Source: Rhodospirillales bacterium RIFCSPLOWO2_02_FULL_58_16 (lineage in GTDB: Bacteria; Pseudomonadota; Alphaproteobacteria; Rhodospirillales; 2-02-FULL-58-16). Taken from it: a stretch of DNA of 64,000 bases. The position numbers and the translations under genes were made by a program. Positions within the stretch are counted from its first letter, which is position 1. Every line of letters starts with the position of its first letter. The notes beneath the pieces were generated by a model that saw only the letters and a program-made list of their open reading frames with translations, searched no databases and was not told where the DNA came from. The stretch is taken from contig MIAA01000016.1 in NCBI GenBank assembly GCA_001830425.1, positions 164,663 to 228,662 on the forward strand, in the 5' to 3' direction. Below are positions 20,232 through 50,845 of this stretch, piece by piece.

Positions 20232-21041
20232 ATGGCGCTCATGGACGAAGAGGGGAGAGTTTCTTTGAAAAAACGGCTCATTGCCGGGGGGCTGCTGGTC
20301 TTTTCCCTGATGTTGCCGGCGCCGCCGCCCGCCGTGGCCGGGGAGGACCTGTCCATCGGCAGGATGCGGCTGATGATCTGGCCCGAGCATGATGATTCCG
20401 GGGTTCTGGTTGTCTATGACGGCAGATTCGTCGAGGACGCCGAATTTCCCGCCAAGACAAGCTTCTTTATCCCCAAGGACGTGGTTATCAACGACATGTG
20501 CAGCCTGTCGCCGACCGGCCAGCATTTCTGCCAGCTTTACGCCGTCGAGAAGGGGCAGGTTGAGGACACGGCGCATCTGTCGTTGCCGTTCGCCAATTTT
20601 TATCTCAGCTTCCATACCCCCGCCCTTGACGTCGATTCCGCGAAAAGGCAATTCGATTTCAGGCTGAAAGCGAATCATGCGATCCGCAATCTGGAGATTG
20701 ATATCCAGCAGCCCCTGCGTTCAAGCGAATTCAATATTTCCCCGGCCGGCGGCGAGGTGATCGAGAAAAAAGGCTTTAATCATTTCAAGTATGTCCTGAA
20801 CGACATCGCCAGGGGCGACGAGAAGCTGATCAGGATCAACTACATCAAGAAGGACCGCGAACCCTCCGTCGATCTCAAATTCGCGTCGATGAGCAGCCCC
20901 AGGGTGTGGGGATCGCCCTATGAGGCCCAGAGGAAGGCGAAGACGCTTGTTTATGTGATCTTTGCCGGCGGCTTGGCGGCGGCGGTGAGCGGCCTTGCCT
21001 GGATCGTCGTCGCGAGAAGAAGAAAGAAATCATCGTCATGA
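20232..21041 (+). CDS. secreted protein with C-terminal TM anchor, function unknown; first gene of thiol-redox operon
   Basis: 269 aa with a signal-like N-terminus and a C-terminal TM segment plus RRRKKSSS tail. The stop overlaps the next start (ATGA). Alternative starts are at 20241 and 20265. Confidence 0.6.
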   Translation: MALMDEEGRVSLKKRLIAGGLLVFSLMLPAPPPAVAGEDLSIGRMRLMIWPEHDDSGVLVVYDGRFVEDAEFPAKTSFFIPKDVVINDMCSLSPTGQHFCQLYAVEKGQVEDTAHLSLPFANFYLSFHTPALDVDSAKRQFDFRLKANHAIRNLEIDIQQPLRSSEFNISPAGGEVIEKKGFNHFKYVLNDIARGDEKLIRINYIKKDREPSVDLKFASMSSPRVWGSPYEAQRKAKTLVYVIFAGGLAAAVSGLAWIVVARRRKKSSS

Positions 21042-21472
21042 ATATGCTCGGCAAGCGTTTCGGCTTTTTCTTGTCGGCGTTGTTGGTCGTCATGCTTATG
21101 GCGCCGGGCGGCGCTTTTGCCCTTACCGTCGGCGAGGTGGTGAAGGATTTGGCTTGTCCCTGCGTCTGCCCTCTGGTGCTTGAAGACTGCAACATGACCT
21201 GCGGGCTGGAGTGGAAGGACGAGGTGGGGAACCTGATCAAGAAGGGCATGACCAAGCAGGAAATCATCGACCATTTTGTACGCACATACGGCGAAGACGC
21301 CCGCTTGACCGCCTTGCAAAAGCTACAAGGCAAGACATATCAGTTCACCAGGAGCTTCGGCGTTATGGAATGGACGATGTTGTGGGCGGGCGTCGGCTTC
21401 TGGGTTTTGGTTCTGTTTTTCGGGATTTATCTGGGGGTCAGGAAACTGCGCTCCAAGGCGTACGCAGCGTGA
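21038..21472 (+). CDS. CcmH/NrfF-like cytochrome c maturation protein with atypical Cys cluster
   Basis: 144 aa: signal peptide, then LACPCVCPLVLEDCNMTC where LRCxxC is expected, then the CcmH-like GMTKQEIIDHFVRTYGEDA, then a C-terminal TM segment. Confidence 0.6.
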   Translation: MNMLGKRFGFFLSALLVVMLMAPGGAFALTVGEVVKDLACPCVCPLVLEDCNMTCGLEWKDEVGNLIKKGMTKQEIIDHFVRTYGEDARLTALQKLQGKTYQFTRSFGVMEWTMLWAGVGFWVLVLFFGIYLGVRKLRSKAYAA

Positions 21473-21513
21473 CCGGCTTGCCATATGGGCATTCAAGCGA
21501 ATATCAATAGTCT

Positions 21514-22332
21514 GTGAAATCAATCTTGCTCAGTTTTGTAATCTTTATGCTCCTGTTGGGGACGGTCTCCGTGGCCGGGTTTATCTATGTGGTGGAGCCG
21601 GGGCCGGAGGGACGAATCGGTTTCCTCAAGGCCACGGGCAGGCTGCTGCTCTATAAATACGCCCTGATCGACAGCCTGAAGCCGAGGGAGATCAGGCGTC
21701 TTTATGAAAGCTCCTGCACAAGGAAATGCCACGGCAAGGCCGTCATCGAGGACAAGCCGCGCACCGCCATGGAATGGGGGCAGATCGTCGAGCGCATGGG
21801 GGCCGGCGATCGCGCCGATCTCGCCTTCAATGAAAAAAAGACGATTATCGAGCATCTGCAAAGGAACTATCTGTCCAACGTGCCGACCATCCTGCCCGAC
21901 CACACCATGCGGTTTCTCAAAAAGCATTTGTGGCGGCTGGATTTCGGCGAGAGCGATCTTTACTTCGACATTATATATATGCCGCTCAAGCACCGCCGCT
22001 TTATGCCGTATCTGGCGCTGAAGGCGCAGCCGACGAACGGCGATGAGGCGGTTTTTATCGTCTATGTGAATACCCACACGGGGATTATTCCCTCGTGGGA
22101 CATGAGCAGGATCACCACGATTACCAACGGCGAGGGCCGCGAGACGAAGGCCGTCGGCTGGCAGATTCTGTTTGAAGACGTGGACAAGCATCATCGCCAG
22201 GGCATTCTTACCTTTCCGGAAATCGGCAAGGAGGGGGACGCCCTGACGTTGACGATCAAGCCCGAGGGAATGAAGGAAAGGATTTTCCAGTGGACCCTGC
22301 CGGTCCCCGATTATGTCGAGGCGGGTAAATGA
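21514..22332 (+). CDS. membrane-anchored periplasmic protein with a single CX3CH (CTRKCH) motif
   Basis: 272 aa with a GTG start and an N-terminal TM segment. SSCTRKCHGKAVIED...MEWGQIVERM was read directly. Confidence 0.55.
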   Translation: MKSILLSFVIFMLLLGTVSVAGFIYVVEPGPEGRIGFLKATGRLLLYKYALIDSLKPREIRRLYESSCTRKCHGKAVIEDKPRTAMEWGQIVERMGAGDRADLAFNEKKTIIEHLQRNYLSNVPTILPDHTMRFLKKHLWRLDFGESDLYFDIIYMPLKHRRFMPYLALKAQPTNGDEAVFIVYVNTHTGIIPSWDMSRITTITNGEGRETKAVGWQILFEDVDKHHRQGILTFPEIGKEGDALTLTIKPEGMKERIFQWTLPVPDYVEAGK

Positions 22333-22823
22333 GCAAAGGGATTTTGCCGGCGTTGTTGTGCCTGCTTTTCCTGTCGGGGTGTGATGGGGGTTCAGGGGCC
22401 GGAGCCGTCGAGAAAGGGCCGGCGCCTGATTTCATCCTCCGCCTTTTCGACGGCGGCGTTTTTCGCCTCGGCGAACACAGGGGAGAGGCGGTGGTCGTTA
22501 ATTTTTTTGCTTCGTGGTGTCTGGTCTGCGGCGTCGAGGCTTCCGATATCGAGGCCGCGCATCAGGAGTTCGCCGCCCGCAAGACGGTTTTCGTCGGCGT
22601 CGCCGTTCAGGATACCGAGAAGAAAGCCGAGGAGTTCGCTAAAACCCACGGCTACACCTTTGCCGCCGGCTTTGATAGGGACGGCAAGATCGGGCGGTCA
22701 TATGGGGTTCACGGCATGCCTGTCACCTTCGTTATCGACGGCAAGGGCGTTATCAGTCGTATTCGCGCCGGCGGCATTACGGCGGCGATGCTCAGAAATG
22801 ATCTGGAAAAGGTTCTTGAATGA
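22329..22823 (+). CDS. TlpA/ResA-like thioredoxin lipoprotein, WCLVC active site
   Basis: Lipobox LFLSGC. VVVNFFASWCLVCGVEA and the cis-Pro region GMPVTFVID are present. Confidence 0.8.
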   Translation: MSKGILPALLCLLFLSGCDGGSGAGAVEKGPAPDFILRLFDGGVFRLGEHRGEAVVVNFFASWCLVCGVEASDIEAAHQEFAARKTVFVGVAVQDTEKKAEEFAKTHGYTFAAGFDRDGKIGRSYGVHGMPVTFVIDGKGVISRIRAGGITAAMLRNDLEKVLE

Positions 22824-23341
22824 GATTGACGGGGCGGGTTCTTGCGGTCGTTTTATGGTCGGCGCTGCTGTTGCCGCCGGTTATCGGCTGCGAGGAAGAG
22901 GTAATCGTCAAAAGAGAGCCTGCGCCCGACTTTGTCCTCAAACTGTTTGACGGCGGGGAGTTCAACAGCGCCGATCACAAGGGCAAGGCGATGGTGGTTA
23001 ATTTCTTCGCCTCATGGTGCCTTCCGTGCAAGGTTGAAGCGCCGCATCTTGAAAAGGCCTACCGGGAGTTCAATATTAAACAGGACGATCCGGCCCGCAA
23101 GGTCGTCTTTCTCGGCGTCGCCATCCAGGACACGGAGGACGCGGCCATGGGCTTCGTCAAGGCGGCGGGGATAACTTTTCCGGCGGGGCTTGACGCCGAT
23201 GATAAAATCAAGGAGGCCTTCGGCGTGTATGGCTTGCCCACCACTTTTTTCGTCGATGGGAAGGGCATCGTCAGTTACACGTTCGCCGGGGGAATGACCG
23301 AGGTATTGTTGAGCAATGAACTGGACAAGATACGTTTTTAA
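22820..23341 (+). CDS. TlpA/ResA-like thioredoxin lipoprotein, WCLPC active site
   Basis: Lipobox PVIGC. MVVNFFASWCLPCKVEAP and GLPTTFFVD are present. Confidence 0.8.
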   Translation: MRLTGRVLAVVLWSALLLPPVIGCEEEVIVKREPAPDFVLKLFDGGEFNSADHKGKAMVVNFFASWCLPCKVEAPHLEKAYREFNIKQDDPARKVVFLGVAIQDTEDAAMGFVKAAGITFPAGLDADDKIKEAFGVYGLPTTFFVDGKGIVSYTFAGGMTEVLLSNELDKIRF

Positions 23342-23834
23342 TTTCCCCGCTCTTGTTGTTTTCCTGATCCCGGCGCTGTTCGGGTGTCTGGGCGACGACA
23401 TCAAGCCGCTGGCGGAAGGCGTCGCAGCGCCCAAGGCGACGCTCACCCTGCTCAACGGCGAGACCAGGGAAGTGACCGATCATCCCGGCAGGGGTCAGGT
23501 CGTCACTTTCATGTCGTCATGGTGCCCGTGCTCCAATGATTCGATTCCGATGTTCAAGAAAGCCTTCAAGCTTCACGGCGAGAACCAACGCCTCGCTTTC
23601 CTGATGATCGGCATCCAGGATTCCCGCGACAAGTTCGCGGAAACGGTCGGTAAATGGGACATTCCCTTTCCCGCCGGTTTTGACGCGGGCAACAAGATCG
23701 CCAGGACTTACGGCGTCAAGCAACCGCCGACCACCGTCTTTATTGATAAGGACGGCAAGGTGAAGAAGTTTTTCTACGGCAATATCAAGGATGTCGAGGA
23801 AGATTTCTATAAATGGCTTGAGGGGCTGGTCTAG
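23316..23834 (+). CDS. TlpA-like thioredoxin-fold lipoprotein with shortened WCPC (CxC) motif
   Basis: Lipobox ALFGC. VVTFMSSWCPCSNDSIP and QPPTTVFID are present. There is one residue fewer between the cysteines than in its two neighbours. Confidence 0.7.
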   Translation: MNWTRYVFNFPALVVFLIPALFGCLGDDIKPLAEGVAAPKATLTLLNGETREVTDHPGRGQVVTFMSSWCPCSNDSIPMFKKAFKLHGENQRLAFLMIGIQDSRDKFAETVGKWDIPFPAGFDAGNKIARTYGVKQPPTTVFIDKDGKVKKFFYGNIKDVEEDFYKWLEGLV

Positions 23835-24538
23835 TGGTCGGATTTTTCGAGGCCGGCCTACAGGGGTTTGCTTCTTTCTTTTCGATCTGGCAGGCCTGTA
23901 TCGCCCAGATCAGCCCGTTTTTCATGGCTTTTATCATCGGCCTTTACTTCATGGCCTGGCGCAGGGGAGCGCCTCCGTCCATGGTTCGGCGCACGGTGTT
24001 TCCGTCCGTGATTTACATGGCCGGGTTCAGCGCGCCCTACGCCCTGATGACGGCGACAGGGCTGCCCGTCGGGCGCTTGATGGCCTATCACAGCGGAACC
24101 CTTTCCGTTATCGCCGGCATCGTTATCCTGCTCATCGGCTTGTTTATGACGCTTTATGGCCGCGTTGCCTTTATCACAAAGCTGGACACTCCTCTTTATA
24201 TTGCTTTTATGTCGCTGCTGCTGGGGATCGCCTTCGCCCTTGTCTATTCGCCGTGCATCACCCCGACCTTGTCCAAGATTATGGGCATCGCCTCGCAGCC
24301 GAAAACGGCGATGACGGGAGCGATCCTTGCCTTTTTCTACGCCGTCGGCATATGCGTAGCTTTTCTGATCACCGGCGTCGTCCTGGTGCGCCTGTTATCC
24401 TCGGTCGGCGTCATGAGGCGCAATCCCGGCAGGGTCAAGGACAGTTGCGGCGCAATTCTCTGCGTTCTCGCCTTCCTCAACATCAGCGGCACGATGATTT
24501 TGTATAAAGCTTTCGTTCTCGGCTTTTTTGTCAAATAA
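23834..24538 (+). CDS. ccdA: CcdA/DsbD-family thiol-disulfide transmembrane electron transporter
   Basis: 234 aa, polytopic, with a GTG start. LVYSPCITPTL is the CcdA second-Cys motif and ACIAQISPF is the N-terminal Cys region. Confidence 0.75.
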   Translation: MVGFFEAGLQGFASFFSIWQACIAQISPFFMAFIIGLYFMAWRRGAPPSMVRRTVFPSVIYMAGFSAPYALMTATGLPVGRLMAYHSGTLSVIAGIVILLIGLFMTLYGRVAFITKLDTPLYIAFMSLLLGIAFALVYSPCITPTLSKIMGIASQPKTAMTGAILAFFYAVGICVAFLITGVVLVRLLSSVGVMRRNPGRVKDSCGAILCVLAFLNISGTMILYKAFVLGFFVK

Positions 24539-25137: not shown

Positions 25138-26919
25138 ATGCATGGAAAGTTAAGCAAGTTCATTTATAAGGGTCTTCTTCCGGGGATGCTTTTTTCAGTC
25201 GGCATCGCCGCTTCGGGGACTGCAAGCGCCGAATTGGCCAGCCAGGGCGGCGACCGCGACTGGTTGAACTATGACGGCGGCACGTCGACGACCGACTCGC
25301 CGACCATCGATCCGATGATCATGTACAACGCCGGCGGTCTTGACGGCAAAGTCGCCGTCATCGGCATTCCGTCGATGAGGACGTACCGTCACATCGATTG
25401 CGGCGTCGATCTTCATGAAATCCTGTTCGGCGGCTCCAACGCCGGCAACAAGAATTTCTCATCCAACGGAACGTTCGCCTACGTCAACGACAAGGGCGCC
25501 AACACCATCTGCGAAATCAATTTGCAGACCGGCATGTTGCAGCGGATAATGGCCATGCCGTTCCCGTTCGGTCTTCACCATATTACGATGGATCCCAAGG
25601 GTGAGTACCTGTACGGCTCCGGCGAGTACACCGGCAAGATGGCGAAGGTCGAGATCAAGTCCGGCAAGACCCAGATCATCGATTGGGGTCCTTCGCCCAG
25701 CGCTCCCGACTATCTGGACGCCGACAAGAAGGGCCGTTACATCTTCTCCGGCAACTACTACCACTCGACGGTCGGCGTTTTCTCCACCAACCCGTTCAAG
25801 TACATCAAGGAAATTCCGGTCGGCAAGAATCCGCACGGCACCGACGTGATCCCAGAGAGCACCAAGGTTATCGTCAGCGACAAGCTGTCGGCGACGATGA
25901 CGGTTATCGATGTTGAAAAGCTGGCGGTGATGAAGGTGTTCCCCACCTGCGCCGGTCCGCTTCACTCGGTGATGGACGTTTACAACAAGGACGGCGGTCC
26001 CTACCATCCCGGCAAGGACTCTCACGACGGCCTGACCTCGAAGTACGCTTATGAAAGCTGCTTCGTCGCCGACGCCAACGTGAAAATCGACCTTAACAAA
26101 CTTGAGGTGGTTGACGAAATCCCGACGCACTATCGCACGGGCCACATCATGATCAGCGCCGACAACAGCTACGTTTTCGCGCTGAACAAGTTCTCGACCG
26201 GCCTGTTCACTCCGACGGGCGTTGTTTACCCGGTTAACTTCGAGATGTGGGACGCCAGGGAAGCCAGTCCGACCTACGGCAAGACCCTGAAAATCATCCC
26301 CGTGGACGGCGAGCCTCATAACTCCAAGTCCATCTTCGGCGATCAGGTCAAGGACTGGACCATGGGCCAAGCCGAAAAGGGCGGGCTTATCAGCGCCTCG
26401 ACCCCGATGCTGGCTCCTGCTCACCGCTCCGGCGCGAAGATCACTTATCTGCCGAAGTCCACTGAAAAGCCCGGCGTTCGCACCGTGGACGGCGTAAAGG
26501 AACTCCACGTCAAGGCGTTCTCTTACGGCTATATCCCGCGTATGTTGAGGGTGAACAAGGGCGACAAGGTTCGCATCTTCGTCACCAACATCGACCAGGC
26601 GGCGGGCATCACCAAGAACCCTGACGTCACCATGGGCTTTTTGATCTATGGGCCGTATGGGCTTAAGACCAACCTTAGCCTGCCGCGCGGCATCACTGCG
26701 GTGACCGAGTTCGTCGCCGACATCGCCGGCGAGTACAGCGTCTTCTGTCAGCACTTCTGCGGTCCTCTGCACCTGGAAATGCGGGCGGAGTTCTTCGTGG
26801 ACGATACGGCGAAGGGACCGTCCAACCTGTCGGTAGGCGACTACGACAAGGCCCAGACTCTTCCGGGTCTGCTTGAGCCGGGTGAAATCACGATCAACAA
26901 GGTGGTTGACAGCCTCTAG
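25138..26919 (+). CDS. divergent NosZ-like copper protein: beta-propeller plus C-terminal CuA-type cupredoxin domain
   Basis: The ATG at 25138 follows AAAGGGGG and a Sec-type signal peptide follows. NosZ-like motifs appear in order: VIGIPSMRTY, GLHHIT, GKNPHGTDV, GPLHSV, THYRTGH, GEPHN, VTNID..DVTMGF, FCQHFCGPLHLEM (CX3CX3HX2M). See findings. Confidence 0.7.
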   Translation: MHGKLSKFIYKGLLPGMLFSVGIAASGTASAELASQGGDRDWLNYDGGTSTTDSPTIDPMIMYNAGGLDGKVAVIGIPSMRTYRHIDCGVDLHEILFGGSNAGNKNFSSNGTFAYVNDKGANTICEINLQTGMLQRIMAMPFPFGLHHITMDPKGEYLYGSGEYTGKMAKVEIKSGKTQIIDWGPSPSAPDYLDADKKGRYIFSGNYYHSTVGVFSTNPFKYIKEIPVGKNPHGTDVIPESTKVIVSDKLSATMTVIDVEKLAVMKVFPTCAGPLHSVMDVYNKDGGPYHPGKDSHDGLTSKYAYESCFVADANVKIDLNKLEVVDEIPTHYRTGHIMISADNSYVFALNKFSTGLFTPTGVVYPVNFEMWDAREASPTYGKTLKIIPVDGEPHNSKSIFGDQVKDWTMGQAEKGGLISASTPMLAPAHRSGAKITYLPKSTEKPGVRTVDGVKELHVKAFSYGYIPRMLRVNKGDKVRIFVTNIDQAAGITKNPDVTMGFLIYGPYGLKTNLSLPRGITAVTEFVADIAGEYSVFCQHFCGPLHLEMRAEFFVDDTAKGPSNLSVGDYDKAQTLPGLLEPGEITINKVVDSL

Positions 26920-26950: not shown

Positions 26951-26994
26951 AAAACTCATCCCCCCTTCCATAAGAAGGGGGGATGAGAGTTTTC
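26951..26994 (+). terminator. strong rho-independent terminator after the NosZ-like gene
   Basis: AAAACTCATCCCCCC-TTCCATAAGAA-GGGGGGATGAGAGTTTT. An 11-bp GC-rich stem extends into an A/T flank and ends in a T-run. Confidence 0.75.
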
Positions 26995-33937: not shown

Positions 33938-33939
33938 GT

Positions 33940-44385: not shown

Positions 44386-44398
44386 GAGGACGGGAGCG

Positions 44399-45163: not shown

Positions 45164-45200
45164 GCGGATGATAAGTTTCATGCACAGGGGTGGTAATCCG

Positions 45201-46724
45201 ATGAGGATCGTGGCGCTGACGGCGTTGGGTCTGTTGCTTATGGCGCCGCCGGCGTCAGCCAAGGGAGACAAGGGCAACGGCGAAATCGTCTATAAAAAGC
45301 GGTGCGTGTGGTGCCATGGCGAAGAGGGCGACGGCGCCGGCGCCGGGGGCGAGATGACCAAGATAATTAACCCGCCGCCTCGGGATTTCACGTCGGGCAT
45401 GTTCAAGATCAAGACCTCGCCGTTCGGCTCGGATTTTCCCAATGACGCCGACATCTACCGCATGATCAGCGACGGCATGCCGGGAACGGTGATGCCGGGA
45501 TGGAAGTCGATCCTCAAAGAGCCGGAGATGTGGGACCTGGTGGCCTATATCAAGACCTTCGCCGAACTGGAAGCCGAACCCGGCAAGACGGTGGATTACG
45601 GAACCCAGGTCAAGACCTCTCCCGAAAGCATCGAAAAGGGGTCCAAGCTGTTCCATGACGGTGATCGTTGCTCCGAATGCCACGGCGCCGAGGGCAAGGG
45701 TAACGCCATCAAAGCGCTGAAAGGCGATAACGGCGAGCGCACCTGGCCGAGGAATCTGACCAAGCCGTGGACGTTCCGCGCCTCCAACGATCCCAAGGAA
45801 ATCTTTACCCGCGTTTCGACCGGCATTTCCGGCACCCAGATGCCGTCGTTTGACGATCCCAAGAGCAACAAAAAGTTGACGGTCGAGGAACGCTGGCATG
45901 TCGCCAACTACGTCAACTCGCTGGCCAAGACCGACAAGACGGTGAAGGCCGAGAACACGGTGGTCAAGGCCGACAAGGTCGCCGGCGACCTGCCCGCCGA
46001 TACCGCTGATCCGGCGTGGGACAAACCGACGCCCTCGACTTTCCTGCTGGTGCCGCAGGTTATCTACAAGGATCGCGTTTTCTCGTCGGCCAACGACACC
46101 ATCACGGCCCGCGCCATGTTTAACGACAAGGAAGTGGCCATCCTGCTGGAATGGGACGACCGCACCAAAAGCATTCCCGGCGACAAGGACGCCGTCAAGA
46201 TCGCCAATCCCGAAATGGGACCGGATCGGGTGGCCGTGCAGTTGCCGATCGCCATCCCGGAAGGCATGAAAAAGCCCTACTTCATCAAGGGCGATACCGC
46301 CAACCCGGTTAATCTGTGGTCGTGGAGTTCGGGAACCGCCGAGGCTGCGGAAAGCGTCGGCCTCGGCAACGGAACCGGCGTTGACGCCGTCGAAGAACGT
46401 GACGCGGCGGCAGTCGGCCTGACCGCCAAGGGCGTCTACAAGGACGGCACCTGGCGGGTGATGATGAAACGCCCGCTGACCGCAGGCAACGCGGAGACCG
46501 ACATTCAGTTCCAGGAAGGCCGCTTTATTCCCATCGCTTTCCAGAGTTGGGACGGATCGAGCAGCGAAATCGGAAGCAAGCACACGCTGACCACATGGTA
46601 CTGGATTCTGCTGAAACCGGCCTCCAGCAACAAACCGCTGATTGTCGGCCTGATTCTGGCCTTGTTGGTGTTCGCCGCCGAAATAATGTGGGCGCGTTCA
46701 GCCGGTAAAAACAAAGACGCTTAA
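45201..46724 (+). CDS. dihaem cytochrome c fused to an EB_dh (type II DMSO-reductase gamma-subunit-like haem b) domain and C-terminal TM anchor
   Basis: CVWCHGEEGDG and CSECHGAEGKG are followed by ARAMFNDKEVAILLEWDD...DRVAVQLPIAI...WRVMMKRPL...IAFQSWDGS, which is typical of ethylbenzene-dehydrogenase/NxrC-like haem-b domains. The track ORF begins at 45117. Confidence 0.65.
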   Translation: MRIVALTALGLLLMAPPASAKGDKGNGEIVYKKRCVWCHGEEGDGAGAGGEMTKIINPPPRDFTSGMFKIKTSPFGSDFPNDADIYRMISDGMPGTVMPGWKSILKEPEMWDLVAYIKTFAELEAEPGKTVDYGTQVKTSPESIEKGSKLFHDGDRCSECHGAEGKGNAIKALKGDNGERTWPRNLTKPWTFRASNDPKEIFTRVSTGISGTQMPSFDDPKSNKKLTVEERWHVANYVNSLAKTDKTVKAENTVVKADKVAGDLPADTADPAWDKPTPSTFLLVPQVIYKDRVFSSANDTITARAMFNDKEVAILLEWDDRTKSIPGDKDAVKIANPEMGPDRVAVQLPIAIPEGMKKPYFIKGDTANPVNLWSWSSGTAEAAESVGLGNGTGVDAVEERDAAAVGLTAKGVYKDGTWRVMMKRPLTAGNAETDIQFQEGRFIPIAFQSWDGSSSEIGSKHTLTTWYWILLKPASSNKPLIVGLILALLVFAAEIMWARSAGKNKDA

Positions 46725-46726: not shown

Positions 46727-48187
46727 ATGGCCATAGCGCCGCAGGCTTCTTTTGTCGAGGCGCCGCCGGAGGACGAGTCCGGTCGGTTCAAACGCATTCT
46801 GGTGGCGTTGGACGCTTCCGACCATGCCGACCGGGCGCTGGCGGAGGCGCTGAGGCTGGTCAATACGTCCGATGGCGTCATCATCGGCATCCATGCCTAC
46901 GCCGCTAAACTTCATGACCGTCGCTTCCGCCAGATGGAAGGCGGTCTGCCGGAGCGCTATCTCGAAGAACAGGAGATGGAGCGCCAGCGCGAGGTTCATG
47001 ACAGCCTGATCACCCGTGGCCTTGACATCATCAGCGACAGTTATCACGACGCCGCCGAACGTTCCTGCAAGGAAGCCGGCCGGCCTTACCAACGCCTCAG
47101 CCCGGAAGGAAAGAATTACCGGCGGATTGTGGAAGCCGTGGAAAACGGCGACTACAGCCTTTTGGCGCTCGGCGCCCTGGGCCTGGGCGGCATTCCGGGC
47201 AGCGTGATCGGCTCCGTCTGTGAGCGGGTGGTCCGGCGCAGCGCCATTGATGTGTTGGTCATCCGCGATCCGGAAAGGGCTATCGGCGACGGCCCCGTCG
47301 TCGTCGGCGTGGACGGCTCGGCGCAGTCCTTCGGGGCGCTGAAAACCGGCTTTGCGATCAGCCGTCGGCTGGGGATTCCGCTTCACGCGGTGGCGGCTTA
47401 CGATCCTTATTACCATTATGTGGCCTTCAACAAGATCGCCGGCGTGCTCAGCGACGAGGCCGGCAAGGTGTTCCGCTTCAAGGAGCAGGAAAAACTTCAC
47501 GAGGAGCTTATCGACGACGGCCTCGCCAAGATTTATCAGGCGCATCTGGAAGTCGCCCGCGTCATGGCCGAGGAAGAAGGCGTTAAACTTACCCTTGAAT
47601 TGCTTGACGGCAAGCCGTACCGGGCGATTGCCGATTACCTGGGAAAAGTCGGGGCAAGCCTGCTGATAATCGGCAAGATCGGCATTCACGCCGATTCCTA
47701 CCTTGATATCGGCGGCAACGCCGAGAACCTGCTGCGGACGGCGCCCTGCCATGTATGGCTCGGGCGGACGACTTATGTCCCGCCGCTGGACGTAGTCGCC
47801 GAGGAAACCATGACCTGGAGCAACGAAGCCGAAGAGATGCTCAACCGGGCGCCGGAATTCGCTCGCGGCATGGCGCGCACGGCGGTGATGAGGCTGGCCC
47901 AGGACAGCGGCCACACCTTCATTACCAGGAGCATGGTGGAAGAGGTCGCCAAAAAATTAATGCCGGGAGGCGGCGGCGGAAAGTGTCCTTATTCAGGCCA
48001 AGACAAGGAGAAGGCAAAGCAGGAACTTACCTGGACCGATGAGGCGACGGCTCTGGTCGAGGGGCTGAATGACAAGGCCCTGGCCGGCAATATCCGCCTG
48101 CGCGCTGAAAAGTCGGCCCATCGCGAGGGGAGGGAGAAAGTAAAGGCCGTTGATGTCCTGAAGTTTCTTGACGGCGGCGGGGAATAG
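46727..48187 (+). CDS. tandem universal-stress-protein domains fused to two PCP_red-like domains
   Basis: 486 aa with two USP modules (ILVALDASDHADRAL...; VVVGVDGSAQS...). Two repeats follow of the type W..EAE..L.R.P.F.R......V (MTWSNEAEEMLNRAPEFARGMART; LTWTDEATALVEGL), as in the BchB/ChlB C-terminal domain. Confidence 0.6.
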   Translation: MAIAPQASFVEAPPEDESGRFKRILVALDASDHADRALAEALRLVNTSDGVIIGIHAYAAKLHDRRFRQMEGGLPERYLEEQEMERQREVHDSLITRGLDIISDSYHDAAERSCKEAGRPYQRLSPEGKNYRRIVEAVENGDYSLLALGALGLGGIPGSVIGSVCERVVRRSAIDVLVIRDPERAIGDGPVVVGVDGSAQSFGALKTGFAISRRLGIPLHAVAAYDPYYHYVAFNKIAGVLSDEAGKVFRFKEQEKLHEELIDDGLAKIYQAHLEVARVMAEEEGVKLTLELLDGKPYRAIADYLGKVGASLLIIGKIGIHADSYLDIGGNAENLLRTAPCHVWLGRTTYVPPLDVVAEETMTWSNEAEEMLNRAPEFARGMARTAVMRLAQDSGHTFITRSMVEEVAKKLMPGGGGGKCPYSGQDKEKAKQELTWTDEATALVEGLNDKALAGNIRLRAEKSAHREGREKVKAVDVLKFLDGGGE

Positions 48188-48192
48188 AGGCC

Positions 48193-49470
48193 GTGGCGAC
48201 CGCAAAACATCCTTTTCTGGTGGCCCTGAACCTGACGCGGCGCTGTAACCTGAATTGCGGCCATTGCTATCTCGACGCCGGCGTCCGCAGGCGCGGCGAT
48301 AATGAACTTTCCACCGCCGAGGTGAAGGCGGTTCTTGACGGCATCGCCTCGTTGAGCGACGAAACCATGGTCGTGTTGACCGGCGGCGAGCCGATGATGC
48401 GGGCCGATGTTCCTGAACTGGCCCGTCACGCCCATAGCCTGGGCCTGATGGCGGTGGTGGGAACCAACGGCACGATGCTGGATGACGGGCGGGTGGCGGA
48501 GCTGAAAGAATCGGGGGTGCAGGGCGTCGGGGTCAGCCTGGATTCTCTCAATCCCGGGCATCATGACGCTTTTCGCGGCCTGTCCGGCGCCTGGGACAAG
48601 ACGATGGCGTCCATCGAAGCCTGCCGGCGCGGCGGCCTCGGGTTTCAGATTCATTTTTCGGTCACCGACGACAACGCCGACGAACTGGACGATATGATCG
48701 CCTTCGCCAAGTCGTCCGGCGCGTTGGTTCTGAATGTCTTTTTTCTGGTATGCACCGGACGCGGCGAGAAGGCGACCAATATCTCCCATGATGTCTACGA
48801 GCGGGTTCTGAGAAAGGTCACCAGGGCCGCTCATGATGAACAGGAATTGATCGTGCGGGCCAAATGCGCTCCGCACTTCAAGCGCATGGCGATGGAACTG
48901 GACCCGGCATGGCCGATTACCCTGGCCCACGGCTATGAGGCGGGAGGATGTCTGGCCGGAACCCGCTATTGCCGGGTCACGCCGGAAGGCGAAGTAACGC
49001 CCTGTCCCTATATGGAGAACTCCGCCGGCTCCGTCCGCGACCGGGGTTTCGCCGAAATATGGCGCAATGCGCCGCTGTTCAAGGCGCTGCGGACGCCGAA
49101 GCTGGAGGGCCGCTGCGGGAAATGCGAGTATATGAAAATTTGCGGCGGCTGCCGGGCGCGTCCCCAGGCGCGGAGCGGCGGGCTTATGGAGGAGGACTTC
49201 CTGTGCGACTACCAACCAAAAGGCGGCGCGGTGATCGAGCCGCAGCAGGAGGGGGCGGCGGCGCTTCCGTGGTCTGTGGAGGCCGAGGCGCGGTTGAAAA
49301 GGGCGCCTTCCTTCCTGCGCCGGATGATCCGCAAGCGCACCGAGGACTACGCCCGCGACAACGGACATGCTATGGTGACCGTTGACGATATGCAAAAGCT
49401 GATGAAGCGGCGTTTCGGAAATGCCGGGCCGCGTATGAAAATACCGGGGAGGACGGGCGTTGACGGTTGA
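48193..49470 (+). CDS. radical SAM/SPASM enzyme of the NirJ/AhbC/AhbD type with C-terminal PCP_red-like domain
   Basis: CNLNCGHCY cluster motif, LTGGEP, VFFLVCTGRG, and the C-terminal Cys cluster CGKCEYMKICGGCRAR are present. These are followed by LPWSVEAEARLKRAPSFLRRMIRKRTEDYA. Confidence 0.7.
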   Translation: MATAKHPFLVALNLTRRCNLNCGHCYLDAGVRRRGDNELSTAEVKAVLDGIASLSDETMVVLTGGEPMMRADVPELARHAHSLGLMAVVGTNGTMLDDGRVAELKESGVQGVGVSLDSLNPGHHDAFRGLSGAWDKTMASIEACRRGGLGFQIHFSVTDDNADELDDMIAFAKSSGALVLNVFFLVCTGRGEKATNISHDVYERVLRKVTRAAHDEQELIVRAKCAPHFKRMAMELDPAWPITLAHGYEAGGCLAGTRYCRVTPEGEVTPCPYMENSAGSVRDRGFAEIWRNAPLFKALRTPKLEGRCGKCEYMKICGGCRARPQARSGGLMEEDFLCDYQPKGGAVIEPQQEGAAALPWSVEAEARLKRAPSFLRRMIRKRTEDYARDNGHAMVTVDDMQKLMKRRFGNAGPRMKIPGRTGVDG

Positions 49471-50845
49471 TGCGGCGATTATCGGAGGAGGCATCTCCGG
49501 GCTGGCCTGCGCCTGGGACCTGAAGCGTCGCGGCCGGCGGGTGGTGGTGCTGGAGCGCCAGGCCGATCCCGGCGGCAGCGCCTGTTCGGAGCGCCTCGGC
49601 GGCGGCTTCCTGATGGAGCACGGGCCGAGCACGGTCAACGCCGGTTCCGACATCGCCAATGATTTCTCCGGGATGCTTGGGCTTAACGGCGAACGCTGCA
49701 ACCTCGGCGGCGGCGTGCGGCGGCGCTATCTGGTCGGCGGCGGCGTCCTTCGCGGCCTGTCGGTAAGTTCCATGGGCTTTTTCCTTTCCGGATACATGTC
49801 CCTTAGGGGAAAGCTGCGTCTGCTCGGCGAGTTTGCGGTTCCCGCCGCCGCCGACGGCAAGGAAGAAACGGTGGCGGAGTTCTGCGTTCGCCGGTTCGGC
49901 CCGGAGTTTCTGGAACGGATTATTGATCCCATGGTCGCCGGCATTTATGCCGGACGCGCCGACGAGCTTTCCGTCTCCGCCGTGTTTCCCAAGCTGGTCG
50001 AACTGGAGCAGAAGTACGGCGCCGTTTCACGCGGGTTGCTGCGCCGTCACAAGCGCGGCGTCAGGATGCCGAGCAGCCGTCTGTTTTCCTGGCAGGACGG
50101 CATTGCTTCTCTTCCCCGCGCCCTCGCCGCCGACCTCGGCGAGGCGGTGCGCGCCGGGATCACGGTGCGCGGGCTTCAGGCGGTTTCCGGCGGATTCAAG
50201 GTGGATGCGGGTCCGGCGGGGGCGTTCGCCGCAAGGTCGGTGATTATCGCCACCCAGCCTCATGTGGCGGCGCGGCTGCTGGAAGGCGTCGACAATGACG
50301 CCGCCTGCGCCGCCGGAGAAATTGACGCGCCGCCGTTGGCCGTAGCCTTTTTCGGCTTTGAACGCCGGCAGGTGGATCATCCGCTTGACGGCCTCGGCTT
50401 CCTGACGTCCCGCAAGGAAGGGCGCTCGTTGAGCGGCGCTCAATTTTGCTCCACCATGTTTCCCGGACGCGCCCCGGAGGGACATGTCGGCGTCGCCGGA
50501 TATCTCGGCGGCGCCAGGTCGCCGGAACTGGCGAGACTGCCGAGAGAGGAACTGCTCGATCTGGCGCTCGAAGATTTCCGCAAGCTGATCGGCGTCAAGG
50601 GAGAGCCTGTGGTTGCCCAGGTGCGGCACTGGCCGCTGGGCCTGCCGCAATACAGGATCGGCCACCAGGAGCGCACGACTTGTCTGAAAAATGCCGGTCA
50701 GCGCCGGCCCGGCCTGTTCGTTACCGGAAATTATTTTCACGGCCCCTCGGTCGCCTCCTGTTTGGCCATGTCGAGGGAAACCGCCTCCGGCGTTCACGGC
50801 TTTCTTGACGAAATCCGGCCCGCCGACCGGAGCGCGGTATTATAA
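49460..50845 (+). CDS. hemY: HemY-type FAD-dependent protoporphyrinogen/coproporphyrinogen oxidase
   Basis: 461 aa. It has the AAIIGGGISGLACAW dinucleotide fold and PGLFVTGNYFHGPSV at the C-terminus. Confidence 0.75.
   Translation: MTVDAAIIGGGISGLACAWDLKRRGRRVVVLERQADPGGSACSERLGGGFLMEHGPSTVNAGSDIANDFSGMLGLNGERCNLGGGVRRRYLVGGGVLRGLSVSSMGFFLSGYMSLRGKLRLLGEFAVPAAADGKEETVAEFCVRRFGPEFLERIIDPMVAGIYAGRADELSVSAVFPKLVELEQKYGAVSRGLLRRHKRGVRMPSSRLFSWQDGIASLPRALAADLGEAVRAGITVRGLQAVSGGFKVDAGPAGAFAARSVIIATQPHVAARLLEGVDNDAACAAGEIDAPPLAVAFFGFERRQVDHPLDGLGFLTSRKEGRSLSGAQFCSTMFPGRAPEGHVGVAGYLGGARSPELARLPREELLDLALEDFRKLIGVKGEPVVAQVRHWPLGLPQYRIGHQERTTCLKNAGQRRPGLFVTGNYFHGPSVASCLAMSRETASGVHGFLDEIRPADRSAVL

What the first reader, a model, noticed from the sequence alone, without database searches (positions are those of the whole stretch)
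20232..50845. 30-kb single-strand respiratory island combining a NosZ-like enzyme, Rieske-less cytochrome b modules, a bd-like oxidase and its own maturation and haem-tailoring genes
From 20232 to 50845 about 32 genes all lie on the plus strand with mostly overlapping or under 15-nt junctions. The only gaps over 200 bp precede the NosZ-like gene (24743-25137), the dihaem cytochrome gene (39782-40068) and the bd-like oxidase gene (41121-41488). I count 12 CxxCH motifs in nine proteins plus one CX3CH. There are also three membrane quinol-interacting candidates (27535-28862, 38612-39781, 41646-43565), one CuA/propeller enzyme, an EB_dh haem-b protein and two Vgb-like propellers. In addition there is a GldG-type ABC exporter, a LivK-like binding protein, thiol-reductases and tetrapyrrole enzymes. 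Copper chaperones sit immediately upstream. The block is inserted between conserved housekeeping neighbourhoods (his operon/hinT and rplM-rpsI-argC) and is bounded on the left by a mobile-looking repeat. I do not recognise this combination as any described nos, nir, nor, cco, cyd, ACIII or nxr locus. It looks like a self-contained, possibly horizontally acquired electron-transport system from quinol to a periplasmic copper enzyme and/or to O2.
Basis: inference. Interest (0 to 1): 0.8.

Follow-up and report, generated by a model that had tools for sequence, protein, structure and literature searches.

The report
Clade III N2O-reductase island with bd-like oxidase
This 30-kb block joins two known but little-studied respiratory gene sets, a clade III "lactonase-type" nitrous-oxide reductase cluster and an OR-N2 cytochrome bd-like oxidase operon, which sit side by side in many other bacteria but also occur apart.

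Summary
Thirty same-strand genes (20232-50845) carry 12 CxxCH motifs in nine proteins, with copper chaperones just upstream.

The NosZ-like gene (25138-26919) is not undescribed. It scores above the curated cut-off of NCBIfam NF052460, clade III lactonase-type N2O reductase, and has all published clade III motifs. The bd-like gene (41646-43565) matches the OR-N2 subfamily. Its cytochrome c and EbdC-like partners match the operon context already described for OR-N2.

I compared 160 related loci:
- **L-nosZ loci:** L-nosZ travels with a monohaem cytochrome c, two propellers, a Rieske-less b6/subunit-IV-haem-c complex, a GldAFG-like ABC system and a thiol-redox/CX3CH module. The bd-like operon is within 10 kb in 19 of 37 well-flanked loci.
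- **bd-like loci:** the bd-like operon, usually with its Usp/radical-SAM/HemY-like trio, lacks L-nosZ in 27 of 29 well-flanked loci.

The island is therefore a composite of two separable units that are often neighbours, not one obligate system. GC3 and tetranucleotide composition give no strong sign of recent import. The left-hand repeat is a dispersed REP-like element.

The likely function is branched low-oxygen respiration: quinol to cytochromes c, then to N2O or O2. The maturation roles are inferred.

The parts
18291..18773 (-). Tat-signal, cysteine-rich small protein; possible copper-binding or storage protein, family not identified
   Evidence: Translation; only a weak TAT_signal Pfam hit
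18801..19316 (-). PCu(A)C copper chaperone
   Evidence: Pfam PF04314, 114.5 bits
19333..19935 (-). SCO1/SenC copper chaperone / thiol-disulfide protein (CPDIC motif)
   Evidence: Pfam PF02630, 169.7 bits. Sco homologues lie directly upstream of L-nosZ in six other loci (L003, L004, L005, L043, L070, L074)
20232..21041 (+). U1: membrane-anchored periplasmic protein of unknown family, invariant C90-x7-H98-x-C100
   Evidence: No Pfam or NCBIfam hit. Found with the CcmH-like and U2 genes next to L-nosZ in 15 loci. Conserved residues
21038..21472 (+). CcmH/NrfF-like protein with an atypical Cys cluster (C40xC42xC44...C51xM53xC55)
   Evidence: Pfam CcmH, 28.2 bits against a cut-off of 25; conserved Cys
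21514..22332 (+). U2: membrane-anchored protein with an invariant CX3CH (C68, C72, H73) and M95; candidate atypical haem c protein
   Evidence: no family hit
22329..23834 (+). Three tandem TlpA/ResA-like periplasmic thioredoxins (22329-22823, 22820-23341, 23316-23834)
   Evidence: Pfam AhpC-TSA/Redoxin. The closest NCBIfam model is ResA, below its cut-off
23834..24538 (+). CcdA/DsbD-type membrane thiol transporter-like protein with two invariant Cys (C22, C141)
   Evidence: Pfam DsbD_TM, 24.3 bits, below the 27.1 cut-off; conserved Cys
25138..26919 (+). Clade III lactonase-type nitrous-oxide reductase (L-NosZ), Sec-type signal peptide
   Evidence: NCBIfam NF052460, 742.1 bits against 700. Motifs GLHH, PHG, GPLH, EPH and CQHFCGPLHLEM are present. 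PDB NosZ matches at E = 2e-23
26983..27531 (+). Lip: lipoprotein of unknown family, placed where a Rieske gene would sit before the cytochrome b genes; no conserved Cys or His
   Evidence: follows L-nosZ in 36 of 80 loci
27535..28167 (+). Cytochrome b6-like subunit with four invariant haem-ligand His (86, 100, 182, 197)
   Evidence: Pfam Cytochrome_B, 120 bits; closest NCBIfam models are b6 and ExtP; conserved His
28188..28862 (+). Subunit IV-like protein with a PEWY motif, fused to one haem c (C159xxCH, H216)
   Evidence: Best PDB hits are b6f subunit IV. Paralogous to the C-terminal half of 38612-39781. Motifs
28882..31097 (+). P1 (C-terminal membrane anchor) and P2: seven-bladed NHL/Vgb_lyase-like propellers; only one Trp per blade is conserved
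   Evidence: Pfam Vgb_lyase, 127 and 164.6 bits; conserved residues; present in 41 of 80 L-nosZ loci
31131..32087 (+). c31: monohaem cytochrome c, the most constant partner of L-nosZ and the candidate direct electron donor
   Evidence: Pfam cytochrome c. Found in 56 of 80 loci and 32 of 37 well-flanked loci, often immediately after L-nosZ
32439..33008 (+). U3: membrane-anchored small protein with CxxCH plus a second CxxC (C56, C59, H60, C69, C72, M83)
   Evidence: no family hit
33005..37288 (+). GldA/GldF/GldG-like ABC system (ATPase 33005-33937, ABC-2 permease 33940-34719, GldG-like 34707-36338) plus a DUF4340 protein (36326-37288)
   Evidence: Pfam. NCBIfam GldA, GldF and GldG models all score below their cut-offs. 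NosY is the permease's only PDB hit (E = 0.0014). The ATPase matches NosF at 4e-37 but ABCA transporters better
37302..38603 (+). LivK-like periplasmic binding protein with an N-terminal anchor, paired with the fused cytochrome b
   Evidence: Pfam Peripla_BP_6. The LivK-b38 pair recurs in Magnetococcales and in window-like metagenome loci
38612..39781 (+). b38: fused cytochrome b6 / subunit IV (PEWF) / haem c protein, a paralogue of 27535-28862
40069..41120 (+). Dihaem (40069-40734) and monohaem (40749-41120) cytochromes c that precede the bd-like gene
   Evidence: they precede the bd-like gene in 28 of 29 well-flanked bd-like loci
41646..43565 (+). OR-N2-type cytochrome bd-like (CydA-like) membrane protein without a Q-loop
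   Evidence: Pfam Cyt_bd_oxida_I on residues 101-336 of the 644-aa ORF from 41631, about 96-331 in 41646 numbering. The PDB CydA alignment covers the N-terminal part only. The OR-N2 signature Y186, E193, Y200, Y202, H216, H106, H280 matches the published table
43570..46724 (+). Dihaem c (43570-44385), membrane monohaem c (44399-45163), and a dihaem c fused to an EbdC/EB_dh-like domain with a C-terminal anchor (45117-46724)
   Evidence: The EbdC-like subunit is in 29 of 29 well-flanked bd-like loci; the two cytochromes c follow the bd-like gene in 77 and 73 of 80 loci
46727..50845 (+). Tetrapyrrole-linked trio: Usp-Usp-PCP_red protein (46727-48187), AhbD/NirJ2-like radical SAM/SPASM-PCP_red (48193-49470), HemY-type protoporphyrinogen oxidase (PPO)-like flavoprotein (49460-50845)
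   Evidence: The trio lies within 10 kb of the bd-like operon, usually right after it, in 30 of 37 loci with enough downstream sequence. The same window also holds hemE-hemH-hemJ

Best explanation
The block is a composite low-oxygen respiratory locus built from two conserved, separately inherited gene sets.

Unit 1 (about 18.3-39.8 kb) is a clade III lactonase-type N2O reductase (L-nosZ) cluster. Quinol would be oxidised by a Rieske-less cytochrome b6 / subunit-IV-haem-c complex, present in a split copy and a fused copy, both keeping the four haem-ligand His and the PEW(Y/F) quinol-site motif. Electrons would then pass through c-type cytochromes, chiefly the ever-present monohaem c31, to the CuA domain and on to the seven-histidine CuZ site of periplasmic L-NosZ, which reduces N2O to N2.

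Canonical NosDFYL and NosR are absent. Copper and thiol handling is inferred to rest on Sco and PCuAC, a CcdA-like / three-TlpA-like / CcmH-like / U1 / U2 (CX3CH) module, and a GldAFG-like ABC system with DUF4340 and two propellers.

Unit 2 (40.1-50.8 kb) is an OR-N2-type cytochrome bd-like operon with four c-type cytochrome subunits and an EbdC-like subunit. It most likely takes electrons from cytochrome c to O2. It carries its own Usp / AhbD-like radical SAM / HemY-like trio, inferred to supply or modify haem when oxygen is scarce.

Shown here: family memberships, conserved ligands and co-location statistics. Inferred: electron routes, maturation roles and substrates.
For: - **L-NosZ membership:** NF052460 scores 742 bits against a cut-off of 700. 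All clade III motifs are present. Seven invariant His plus the CuA loop C537, C541, H545, M548 are conserved across 79 sequences of 49-79% identity.
- **Cytochrome b module:** four invariant His in each copy and a PEWY/PEWF motif; the best PDB hit for 28188-28862 is b6f subunit IV. No Rieske domain appears among the scanned ORFs.
- **Partners of L-nosZ:** in 37 well-flanked loci, c31 occurs in 32, the propellers in 26, the bd-like gene in 19, the tetrapyrrole trio in 18, cytochrome b in 17, the ABC system in 11 and the thiol module in 8. Only L-nosZ and the genes that follow it (26983-39781) turn up near bd-like loci, and only in five of them: three that contain L-nosZ itself, and L092 and L097, window-like loci where L-nosZ probably lies beyond the 10-kb horizon. 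The thiol module (20232-24538) is absent from all 80.
- **OR-N2 unit:** the residue signature and the operon content (several cytochromes c plus an ebdC homologue) match the published description. In 29 well-flanked bd-like loci, the EbdC-like gene occurs in 29, the upstream dihaem c in 28, the trio in 23 and L-nosZ in 2.
- **Gallionellales arrangement:** L-nosZ and c31 sit inside the OR-N2 array, between the EbdC-like gene and the Usp gene.
- **Copper chaperones:** PCuAC and Sco lie upstream, and Sco lies beside L-nosZ in other loci.
- **Second protoporphyrinogen oxidase (PPO):** a housekeeping hemE-hemH-hemJ operon in the same window makes the HemY-like gene an additional PPO-type enzyme.
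- **Literature:** later papers treat clade III NosZ as an active N2O reductase.
Against: - No experiment or expression data bear on this organism.
- The residue aligned with the first CuA histidine of canonical NosZ is Met (M499) in 98% of clade III sequences, so the electron-entry site differs from the solved enzymes.
- OR-N enzymes have never been shown to reduce O2. The literature calls their function enigmatic and notes homologues in anaerobic anammox bacteria.
- The accessory proteins U1, U2, U3, Lip, P1 and P2 have no characterised relatives, so their roles are guesses from position and conserved Cys, His and Met residues.
- The trio also follows L-nosZ-c31 in four loci with no bd-like gene within 10 kb, so it is not tied only to Unit 2.
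- The 10-kb horizon of fetched loci undercounts linkage. In the window itself the bd-like gene lies 14.7 kb from L-nosZ.
- My AlphaFold model of L-NosZ was too poor to check the geometry.
Confidence: 0.62

Rival explanations
1. This is one obligate, self-contained system. The cytochrome b modules, the bd-like complex, the cytochromes and the copper enzyme would form a single electron-transport chain that is inherited and regulated as a unit.
For: The bd-like operon lies within 10 kb of L-nosZ in 19 of 37 well-flanked loci from several classes. In Gallionellales L-nosZ-c31 is embedded in the same-strand OR-N2 array. Window-like order recurs in two metagenome contigs, L092 and L097.
Against: Close relatives of the bd-like operon (68-79% identity) lack L-nosZ within 10 kb in 27 of 29 well-flanked loci. 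Module order and orientation are shuffled between lineages. The window shows four gaps over 200 nt, including a 599-nt gap with a promoter-like site before L-nosZ and a terminator-like hairpin after c31. Nitrospinota and many Alpha/Gamma loci show L-nosZ with the cytochrome b module but no bd-like gene in range.
Confidence: 0.15
2. The OR-N2 bd-like complex is not an oxygen reductase. It would be the membrane coupling site (ACIII-like, quinone/cytochrome c) that feeds or balances electrons for L-NosZ, especially in iron-oxidiser lineages whose L-nosZ loci lack the cytochrome b module.
For: Among the 37 well-flanked L-nosZ loci, 14 have the bd-like gene without cytochrome b, 12 have cytochrome b without it, and only 5 have both (table). 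The literature raises an ACIII-like role and notes bd-like genes in anaerobic Kuenenia. L-nosZ sits inside the OR-N2 array in Gallionellales.
Against: No Q-loop or known quinol-site residues are present. The residues equivalent to the haem ligands His19 and His186 and to the channel Glu are invariant, as expected for a retained O2 site. The operon usually stands without L-nosZ. The complementary pattern is confounded by phylogeny and by the 10-kb horizon.
Confidence: 0.13
3. The NosZ-like protein of this proteobacterial subgroup acts on something other than N2O, for example another small oxidant, or it serves as a copper redox protein in metal oxidation. The cluster would then serve that chemistry.
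For: The first CuA His is replaced by Met. NosDFYL and NosR are absent. Many hosts are Fe(II) oxidisers (Gallionellaceae, Zetaproteobacteria) or magnetotactic bacteria. An earlier paper cautioned that the function needed testing.
Against: The protein scores above the cut-off of an equivalog-level model for clade III N2O reductase. All seven CuZ-type His are invariant from Proteobacteria to Nitrospinota. Later papers treat clade III as an active, acetylene-sensitive N2O reductase. The Met substitution is family-wide, so it does not set this subgroup apart.
Confidence: 0.07
4. The block is a chance juxtaposition of unrelated operons that merely share the leading strand.
For: The whole 13-53 kb stretch is plus-strand. 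Composition does not set the block apart.
Against: The same gene families recur beside L-nosZ in at least seven phylum- or class-level groups, in conserved sub-orders.
Confidence: 0.03

Closest known systems
Clade III lactonase-type nitrous-oxide reductase (L-NosZ; He et al., Nature 2025; NCBIfam NF052460) and its gene clusters
   Same: The protein passes the curated model cut-off and every published motif filter. It has a lactonase-type seven-bladed propeller plus a cupredoxin domain and a Sec-type signal. The cluster lacks nosR and nosDFYL and is surrounded by cytochrome and ABC-transporter genes, as later papers describe for clade III.
   Different: I could not read the original paper, so I cannot say which accessory genes it described. 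Here the cluster additionally abuts an OR-N2 bd-like operon, a thiol-redox/CX3CH module and Sco/PCuAC. The host is a Rhodospirillales MAG rather than the Nitrospinota, Nitrospirota or Desulfobacterota emphasised in the papers I could read.
Canonical NosZ clades I and II with NosR or NosGH/NosB and NosDFYL
   Same: The C-terminal two thirds align with solved NosZ structures (E = 2e-23). The CuA loop CX3CX3HX2M is conserved, as are His equivalents of the CuZ ligands (PHG, GPLH, GH, EPH). The ABC ATPase and ABC-2 permease are distant relatives of NosF and NosY.
   Different: TIGR04244 and TIGR04246 score 118 and 155 bits against cut-offs of 625. The first CuA His is Met. No NosD, NosL, NosR or NosX were found, and there is no Tat motif. 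Electron input is a Rieske-less cytochrome b rather than NosR, NosGH or a Rieske/bc complex.
OR-N2 subfamily of the cytochrome bd superfamily (Murali, Gennis and Hemp 2021), i.e. the 'bd-like oxidases' of Nitrospira and Nitrospina
   Same: Only the N-terminal helices of CydA are retained, with no Q-loop. The His19 and His186 equivalents and the Y/E/Y/Y/H signature of OR-N2 are present. The operon has several cytochromes c and an ebdC homologue.
   Different: The host is a proteobacterium and the operon is not linked to NXR. It is followed by a Usp / radical SAM / HemY-like trio and, in many lineages, is joined to L-nosZ. The papers I read mention neither link.
Bacillus-type menaquinol:cytochrome c reductase QcrABC (b6c complex) and Geobacter Cbc-type Rieske-less cytochrome b complexes
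   Same: A split cytochrome b6 plus subunit IV fused to a c-type haem, with the quinol-site PEWY motif. The closest NCBIfam models are b6 and ExtP.
   Different: No Rieske iron-sulfur subunit was found. A lipoprotein without conserved Cys or His occupies that gene position. The comparison with QcrABC and Cbc rests on my own knowledge and was not tested here.
AhbD / NirJ2 radical SAM haem enzymes and HemY (PgoX/CgoX)
   Same: The radical SAM protein has the CX3CX2C motif and SPASM cysteines, and scores about 316 bits to both the AhbD and NirJ2 models. The flavoprotein passes the TIGR00562 PPO cut-off.
   Different: The radical SAM scores are below both cut-offs (500), and the protein carries an extra C-terminal PCP_red domain shared with the neighbouring Usp protein. 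The genome already has hemE-hemH-hemJ. The substrate is unknown.

Membership tests
Clade III lactonase-type N2O reductase (L-NosZ) | Score at or above the curated cut-off of the equivalog model NF052460 | tested here: met
   742.1 bits against a cut-off of 700, covering model positions 1-480 of 480
Clade III lactonase-type N2O reductase (L-NosZ) | Published motif filter: CX2FCX3HXEM, DXHH or GXHH, PHG, GPLH, EPH; length 400-900 aa | tested here: met
   CQHFCGPLHLEM, GLHH, NPHG, GPLH and GEPH are present in a 593-aa protein. The criteria are quoted
Clade III lactonase-type N2O reductase (L-NosZ) | Lactonase-type seven-bladed propeller plus a C-terminal cupredoxin domain | tested here: met
   Pfam Lactonase, YNCE and nos_propeller hits. 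Cupredoxin_1 scores 21.3 bits, below its cut-off, but the CuA loop aligns with solved NosZ
Clade III lactonase-type N2O reductase (L-NosZ) | Catalyses N2O reduction to N2 | not testable with these tools
   Rests on literature for other members of the clade
Canonical NosZ clade I (Tat) / clade II (Sec) | Score at or above the cut-off of TIGR04244 or TIGR04246 | tested here: not met
   118.1 and 154.5 bits against cut-offs of 625
Canonical NosZ clade I (Tat) / clade II (Sec) | CuA ligand set with two His (first His in the D-x-x-H-G motif) | tested here: not met
   DVTMGF aligns with DLTHGF of 1fwx. Met is conserved in 98% of 79 clade III sequences
Canonical nos cluster | NosD, NosF, NosY and NosL assembly genes, and NosR or NosGH | tested here: not met
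   No NosD, NosL or NosR-type domains appear in any scanned ORF of the window or in the Gallionellales locus. Only distant NosF/NosY-like ABC parts are present
OR-N2 cytochrome bd-like oxidase | CydA N-terminal helices retained, with the haem ligands His19 and His186 | tested here: met
   Pfam Cyt_bd_oxida_I, 58.7 bits. H106 and H280 are invariant in 130 sequences and align with the CydA His residues
OR-N2 cytochrome bd-like oxidase | No Q-loop or quinol-binding residues | tested here: inconclusive
   PDB CydA alignments stop at query residue 342, and nothing aligns to the Q-loop region. I did not check residue by residue against a reference alignment
OR-N2 cytochrome bd-like oxidase | Subfamily signature at the E99, E107, Y, Y and H126 positions (Y183, E190, Y197, Y199, H213 in the reference) | tested here: met
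   Y186, E193, Y200, Y202 and H216 have identical spacing
OR-N2 cytochrome bd-like oxidase | Operon with several cytochromes c and an ebdC homologue | tested here: met
   The ebdC-like gene is in 29 of 29 well-flanked bd-like loci
OR-N2 cytochrome bd-like oxidase | Fourteen transmembrane helices | tested here: inconclusive
   A crude hydropathy scan gives 12 peaks including the signal/anchor
OR-N2 cytochrome bd-like oxidase | Oxygen reduction | not testable with these tools
   Not shown experimentally for any OR-N enzyme,
Rieske/cytochrome b complexes (bc1, b6f, b6c) | Cytochrome b with four His ligands and a PEWY-type quinol site | tested here: met
   H86, H100, H182, H197 and PEWY in the split copy; H64, H78, H163, H178 and PEWF in the fused copy
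Rieske/cytochrome b complexes (bc1, b6f, b6c) | Rieske 2Fe-2S subunit encoded with cytochrome b | tested here: not met
   No Rieske domain in any scanned ORF. The gene before cytochrome b is a lipoprotein with no conserved Cys or His
GldAFG gliding-motility ABC transporter | Scores at or above the cut-offs of TIGR03522, TIGR03518 and TIGR03521 | tested here: not met
   319.7 against 402.6, 164 against 288.5, and 87.3 against 389.9
AhbD haem b synthase / NirJ2 | Score at or above the cut-off (500) of TIGR04545 or TIGR04055 | tested here: not met
   315.7 and 316.3 bits
Protoporphyrinogen oxidase HemY | Score at or above the cut-off of TIGR00562 | tested here: met
   232.8 bits against 97.85. 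Substrate (protoporphyrinogen or coproporphyrinogen) was not tested

The most novel reading that the evidence does not exclude
Clade III N2O reductase may be matured and wired by machinery unrelated to NosDFYL and NosR. That machinery would be Sco/PCuAC, a dedicated CcdA / TlpA-like / CcmH-like / U1 / U2 (CX3CH) thiol-metal module, a GldAFG-like ABC system with DUF4340, two non-catalytic propellers, and a Rieske-less b6 / subunit-IV-haem-c quinol oxidase. In iron oxidisers the minimal L-nosZ-c31 cassette would be plugged straight into an OR-N2 bd-like operon. That operon's own AhbD-like / HemY-like / Usp-PCP_red trio would make or modify a special haem. If so, the locus would give the parts list for two open problems: how CuZ is built without NosDFY, and what OR-N 'oxidases' contain and do.
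Probability: 0.3. Interest if true: 0.7.

Novelty: new member of a known kind. Interest (0 to 1): 0.45.

Why it matters
N2O reductase is the only known biological sink for a major greenhouse gas. Clade III enzymes were recognised only in 2025, and how they receive electrons and acquire their copper centres without the classical Nos accessory proteins is, as far as I could read, open.

This window and the 160 related loci give a concrete, conserved candidate parts list. It comprises c31, a Rieske-less cytochrome b complex, two propellers, a GldAFG-like ABC system, a thiol/CX3CH module and Sco/PCuAC.

The loci also show that in Fe(II)-oxidising Gallionellaceae and Zetaproteobacteria, and in Magnetococcales, the enzyme sits beside or inside an OR-N2 bd-like operon. 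That points to co-use of O2 and N2O at oxic-anoxic interfaces. It also offers genetically tractable contexts for testing what OR-N enzymes do.

The finding itself, however, consists of two already named families, not a new kind of system.

Tried and rejected
- **AlphaFold2 model of L-NosZ:** with a 14-sequence alignment the mean pLDDT was 49.6, too poor for a fold search or site geometry. I did not repeat it, because membership was settled by NF052460 and the tool returns no coordinates.
- **Original clade III paper:** I tried to read it by DOI and by PubMed id and it is not held. The supplement of the lake-sediment paper is not held either. What is already published about clade III accessory genes therefore comes only from citing papers.
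- **FNR/CRP-type box (TTGATN4ATCAA):** 3 hits against 1.8 expected, none in the large gaps. Rejected as a regulatory lead.
- **Sigma-70-like promoters:** counts are not above shuffles in either half. Terminator-like sites are enriched in 20000-39999 (44 against 26.9 expected) but not in 36000-53500 (17 against 22.3). Only single sites are quoted, and only as hints.
- **Recent horizontal transfer:** GC3 and tetranucleotide profiles are close to the flanks. The lower overall G+C of 20-44 kb does not show up in GC3, which argues against a foreign origin; membrane-protein amino-acid composition is a possible cause that I did not test.
- **Boundary repeat as a mobility signal:** rejected, because the same palindromic element occurs at nine intergenic sites.
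- **Shared flanks:** I searched for his/hinT or rplM-rpsI-argC flanks in the 160 loci and found none. The insertion point is unique among the loci fetched.
- **The lipoprotein 26983-27531 as a copper chaperone or Rieske relic:** it has no conserved Cys, His or Met, so neither reading has support.
- **The 23791-24507 frame:** rejected as a shadow ORF.

Full report
**Source and layout**

The NosZ-like protein is 100% identical to a GenBank protein from the groundwater MAG 'Rhodospirillales bacterium RIFCSPLOWO2_12_FULL_58_28', on a 318-kb contig.

ORF listing and translation confirm 30 consecutive plus-strand genes from 20232 to 50845, or 31 with a small membrane ORF at 24539-24742. Junctions are mostly overlapping or very short. 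The motif count is exact: 12 CxxCH in nine proteins, plus CTRKCH in 21514-22332.

Large gaps lie before L-nosZ, before 40069 and before 41646. A fourth gap (32088-32438) holds a terminator-like hairpin, if the next gene starts at the homologue-supported Met at 32439.

The flanks are housekeeping genes: hslVU, the his operon and hinT on the left, and rplM-rpsI-argC and fumarase on the right. The whole 13-53 kb stretch is plus-strand with rising GC skew. Single-strandedness is therefore not peculiar to the block.

**Identity of the parts**

Pfam and NCBIfam scans give the gene list in 'parts'. The decisive result is NF052460, 'clade III lactonase-type nitrous-oxide reductase', an equivalog model. 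It scores 742.1 bits against a cut-off of 700. The clade I and clade II models score 118 and 155 bits against cut-offs of 625.

The protein also passes the published clade III filter: CX2FCX3HXEM, GXHH, PHG, GPLH and EPH, with length 400-900 aa (criteria quoted; sequence). Its C-terminal two thirds align with solved NosZ structures at E = 2e-23.

Across 79 relatives of 49-79% identity, seven His are invariant (147, 148, 209, 233, 276, 336, 394), which is the number of CuZ ligands. The CuA loop C537, C541, H545, M548 is conserved as well. The position of the first CuA His is Met in 98% of sequences.

The family was named in 2025 and had been noticed in 2024.

**The bd-like unit**

The protein 41646-43565 keeps only the N-terminal CydA helices. 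It has invariant equivalents of the haem ligands His19 and His186 (H106, H280). It also carries the Y186 / E193 / Y200 / Y202 / H216 pattern, with the same spacing as the OR-N2 reference in the supplementary table of Murali et al..

That paper also says OR-N2 operons typically hold several cytochromes c and an ebdC homologue. This is exactly the set 40069-46724. The function of OR-N enzymes is untested.

**Comparative test, forward direction**

I scanned one genome per GTDB species with an alignment of L-NosZ. This returned 80 loci from Alphaproteobacteria, Magnetococcales, Zetaproteobacteria, Gallionellaceae and other Nitrosomonadales, marine Gammaproteobacteria, Desulfobacterota, Nitrospirota and Nitrospinota.

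A tblastn search with every window protein shows recurring modules:
- **A:** U1, CcmH-like, U2, TlpA-like proteins and CcdA-like.
- **B:** Lip, b6, subunit IV-c, P1, P2, c31, U3, ABC ATPase, permease, GldG-like and DUF4340.
- **C:** dihaem c, monohaem c, bd-like, dihaem c, monohaem c and EbdC-like.
- **D:** Usp, radical SAM and HemY-like.

Counts in the 37 loci with at least 8 kb on both sides:

| Partner of L-nosZ | Loci (of 37) |
|---|---|
| c31 | 32 |
| P1/P2 | 26 |
| bd-like | 19 |
| D | 18 |
| cytochrome b | 17 |
| ABC system | 11 |
| A | 8 |

Order and orientation differ by lineage. Nitrospinota keep L-nosZ, Lip, b6, subunit IV-c, P1 and P2. Desulfobacterota have A, L-nosZ and B much as in the window. 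Magnetococcales have C divergent from L-nosZ plus B. In Gallionellaceae and Zetaproteobacteria a two-gene L-nosZ-c31 cassette sits beside C and D with no cytochrome b in range. A Gallionellales contig with precomputed Pfam calls shows the array C, L-nosZ, c31, D on one strand.

**Comparative test, reverse direction**

I scanned metagenome contigs with the bd-like protein. This gave 80 loci of 68-79% identity.

Counts in the 29 loci with at least 8 kb on both sides:

| Feature near the bd-like gene | Loci (of 29) |
|---|---|
| EbdC-like gene | 29 |
| upstream dihaem c | 28 |
| D | 23 |
| tandem divergent bd-like paralogue | 23 |
| L-nosZ | 2 |

The paralogue carries a roughly 60-aa insertion. 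Module A never appears near these loci. Module B genes appear only in the three loci that contain L-nosZ and in L092 and L097, two window-like loci where L-nosZ probably lies beyond the 10-kb horizon.

C plus D is therefore an autonomous unit, and A, L-nosZ and B form another. The two are frequent neighbours but are not obligately linked. The 10-kb horizon undercounts linkage, since the window's own bd-like gene lies 14.7 kb from L-nosZ. Whole-genome co-occurrence remains to be done.

**Mechanism**

The split cytochrome b (27535-28862) and its fused paralogue (38612-39781) keep four haem-ligand His with b6-type spacing and a PEWY or PEWF motif. Each also carries a C-terminal c-type haem. No Rieske gene is present. 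The gene in its usual position encodes a lipoprotein with no conserved Cys or His.

I infer quinol oxidation by this complex. Electrons would then pass through c-type cytochromes, with c31 as the most constant partner, to L-NosZ, and in parallel to the OR-N2 complex.

Iron-oxidiser clusters lack the cytochrome b module. This fits electron entry at the cytochrome c level in those organisms, but it is inference and is confounded by phylogeny.

For maturation, the evidence is positional. PCuAC and Sco lie upstream, and Sco lies next to L-nosZ in six other loci. Module A is specific to L-nosZ loci and has invariant Cys, His and Met motifs. The ABC system's permease has NosY as its only PDB relative (E = 0.0014), but the system is otherwise GldAFG-like and scores below those models' cut-offs.

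P1 and P2 conserve only one Trp per blade, so I read them as scaffolds rather than enzymes.

The D trio is an extra tetrapyrrole branch, because the same window encodes hemE-hemH-hemJ. Its radical SAM member sits between AhbD and NirJ2, below both cut-offs, and shares a PCP_red domain with the Usp protein.

**Origin**

GC3 in the block is 0.59-0.81, mostly 0.72-0.80, and overlaps the flanks at 0.70-0.79. Tetranucleotide correlation to the flanks is 0.93 for 20232-39781 and 0.98 for 40069-50845, against 0.96-0.97 for the 5-kb flank windows apart from the outlying first one.

The palindromic element at 18017-18142 and 20030-20150 recurs at nine intergenic sites against 0.02 expected. It is a REP-like family, not an island boundary. 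An 86-nt copy of the hinT 3' end (93% identity) lies 438 nt downstream of the original and hints at an old rearrangement near the chaperone genes.

No fetched locus shares the window's flanks. Identities of 67-80% for L-NosZ across proteobacterial classes, together with the shuffled module order, are compatible with past lateral spread. Recent import into this genome is not supported.

**Verdict**

The block is not an unrecognised kind of system. It is a well-preserved member of the clade III L-nosZ cluster type joined to an OR-N2 bd-like operon.

Its value lies in the conserved accessory set, the recurrent L-nosZ/OR-N2 adjacency in iron oxidisers and magnetotactic bacteria, and the family-wide His-to-Met change at CuA. 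All three are testable leads. I could not establish whether they have been reported before.

Noticed in passing
window 25138-26919, residue M499; loci L001-L080: The residue aligned with the first CuA histidine of solved NosZ (DLTHGF) is Met (DVTMGF). It is conserved in 98% of 79 clade III sequences from Proteobacteria to Nitrospinota. No other conserved His lies in the cupredoxin domain upstream of the CX3CX3HX2M loop.
   Followed up: partly
window 1279, 11594/11664, 18032/18119, 20045, 53369, 53950/54022: A dispersed palindromic REP-like element (ACCACAGAGGCNCAGAGNCAC, often as hairpin pairs) occurs at nine intergenic sites against 0.02 expected by chance. It brackets the copper-chaperone genes but is not specific to the island.
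   Followed up: yes
window 17492-17577 and 17930-18015: The last 86 nt of hinT are duplicated (93% identity) 438 nt downstream, just before a REP-like hairpin. This looks like a scar of an old insertion or rearrangement between hinT and the chaperone genes.
   Followed up: no
window 587-3550, minus strand: A housekeeping hemE (URO-D), hemH (ferrochelatase) and hemJ (UPF0093) operon lies in the same window. The HemY-like gene at 49460-50845 is therefore a second protoporphyrinogen-oxidase-type enzyme in this genome.
   Followed up: partly
L083-L157, e.g. L086:2300-13300, L109, L155: Most marine and metagenome contigs carry a tandem pair of bd-like units. The upstream copy is 35-48% identical, keeps all signature residues and has a roughly 60-aa, apparently two-helix insertion after the fourth helix. 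Each copy has its own cytochromes c and EbdC-like gene.
   Followed up: partly
L099, L106, L112, L116-L118, L127, L129, L132, L133, L154: Sco homologues lie next to bd-like operons in 11 of 80 loci with no L-nosZ in range. This hints that the OR-N2 unit, or something co-regulated with it, needs copper.
   Followed up: no
L027, L060, L066: Contigs binned as Moraniibacteriota, Patescibacteria and Enterobacteriaceae carry L-nosZ that is 74-77% identical to the window's and, for the first two, has Gallionella-like gene order. These are probably binning or labelling errors.
   Followed up: no
window 24539-24742: A small ORF (67 aa, one or two hydrophobic helices) follows the CcdA-like gene. It has only one weak tblastn match in the 160 loci, so it may not be a real gene.
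   Followed up: partly
window 3001-5000 and 61000-64000: Two low-G+C patches (0.45 and 0.52-0.53, against about 0.6 elsewhere). The second overlaps a 544-aa ORF (61330-62964) with no Pfam hit.
   Followed up: no
L021, L025, L028, L029: In four Gallionellaceae/Nitrosomonadales loci the Usp / radical SAM / HemY-like trio follows L-nosZ-c31 with no bd-like gene within 10 kb. The trio is therefore not tied only to the bd-like operon.
   Followed up: no
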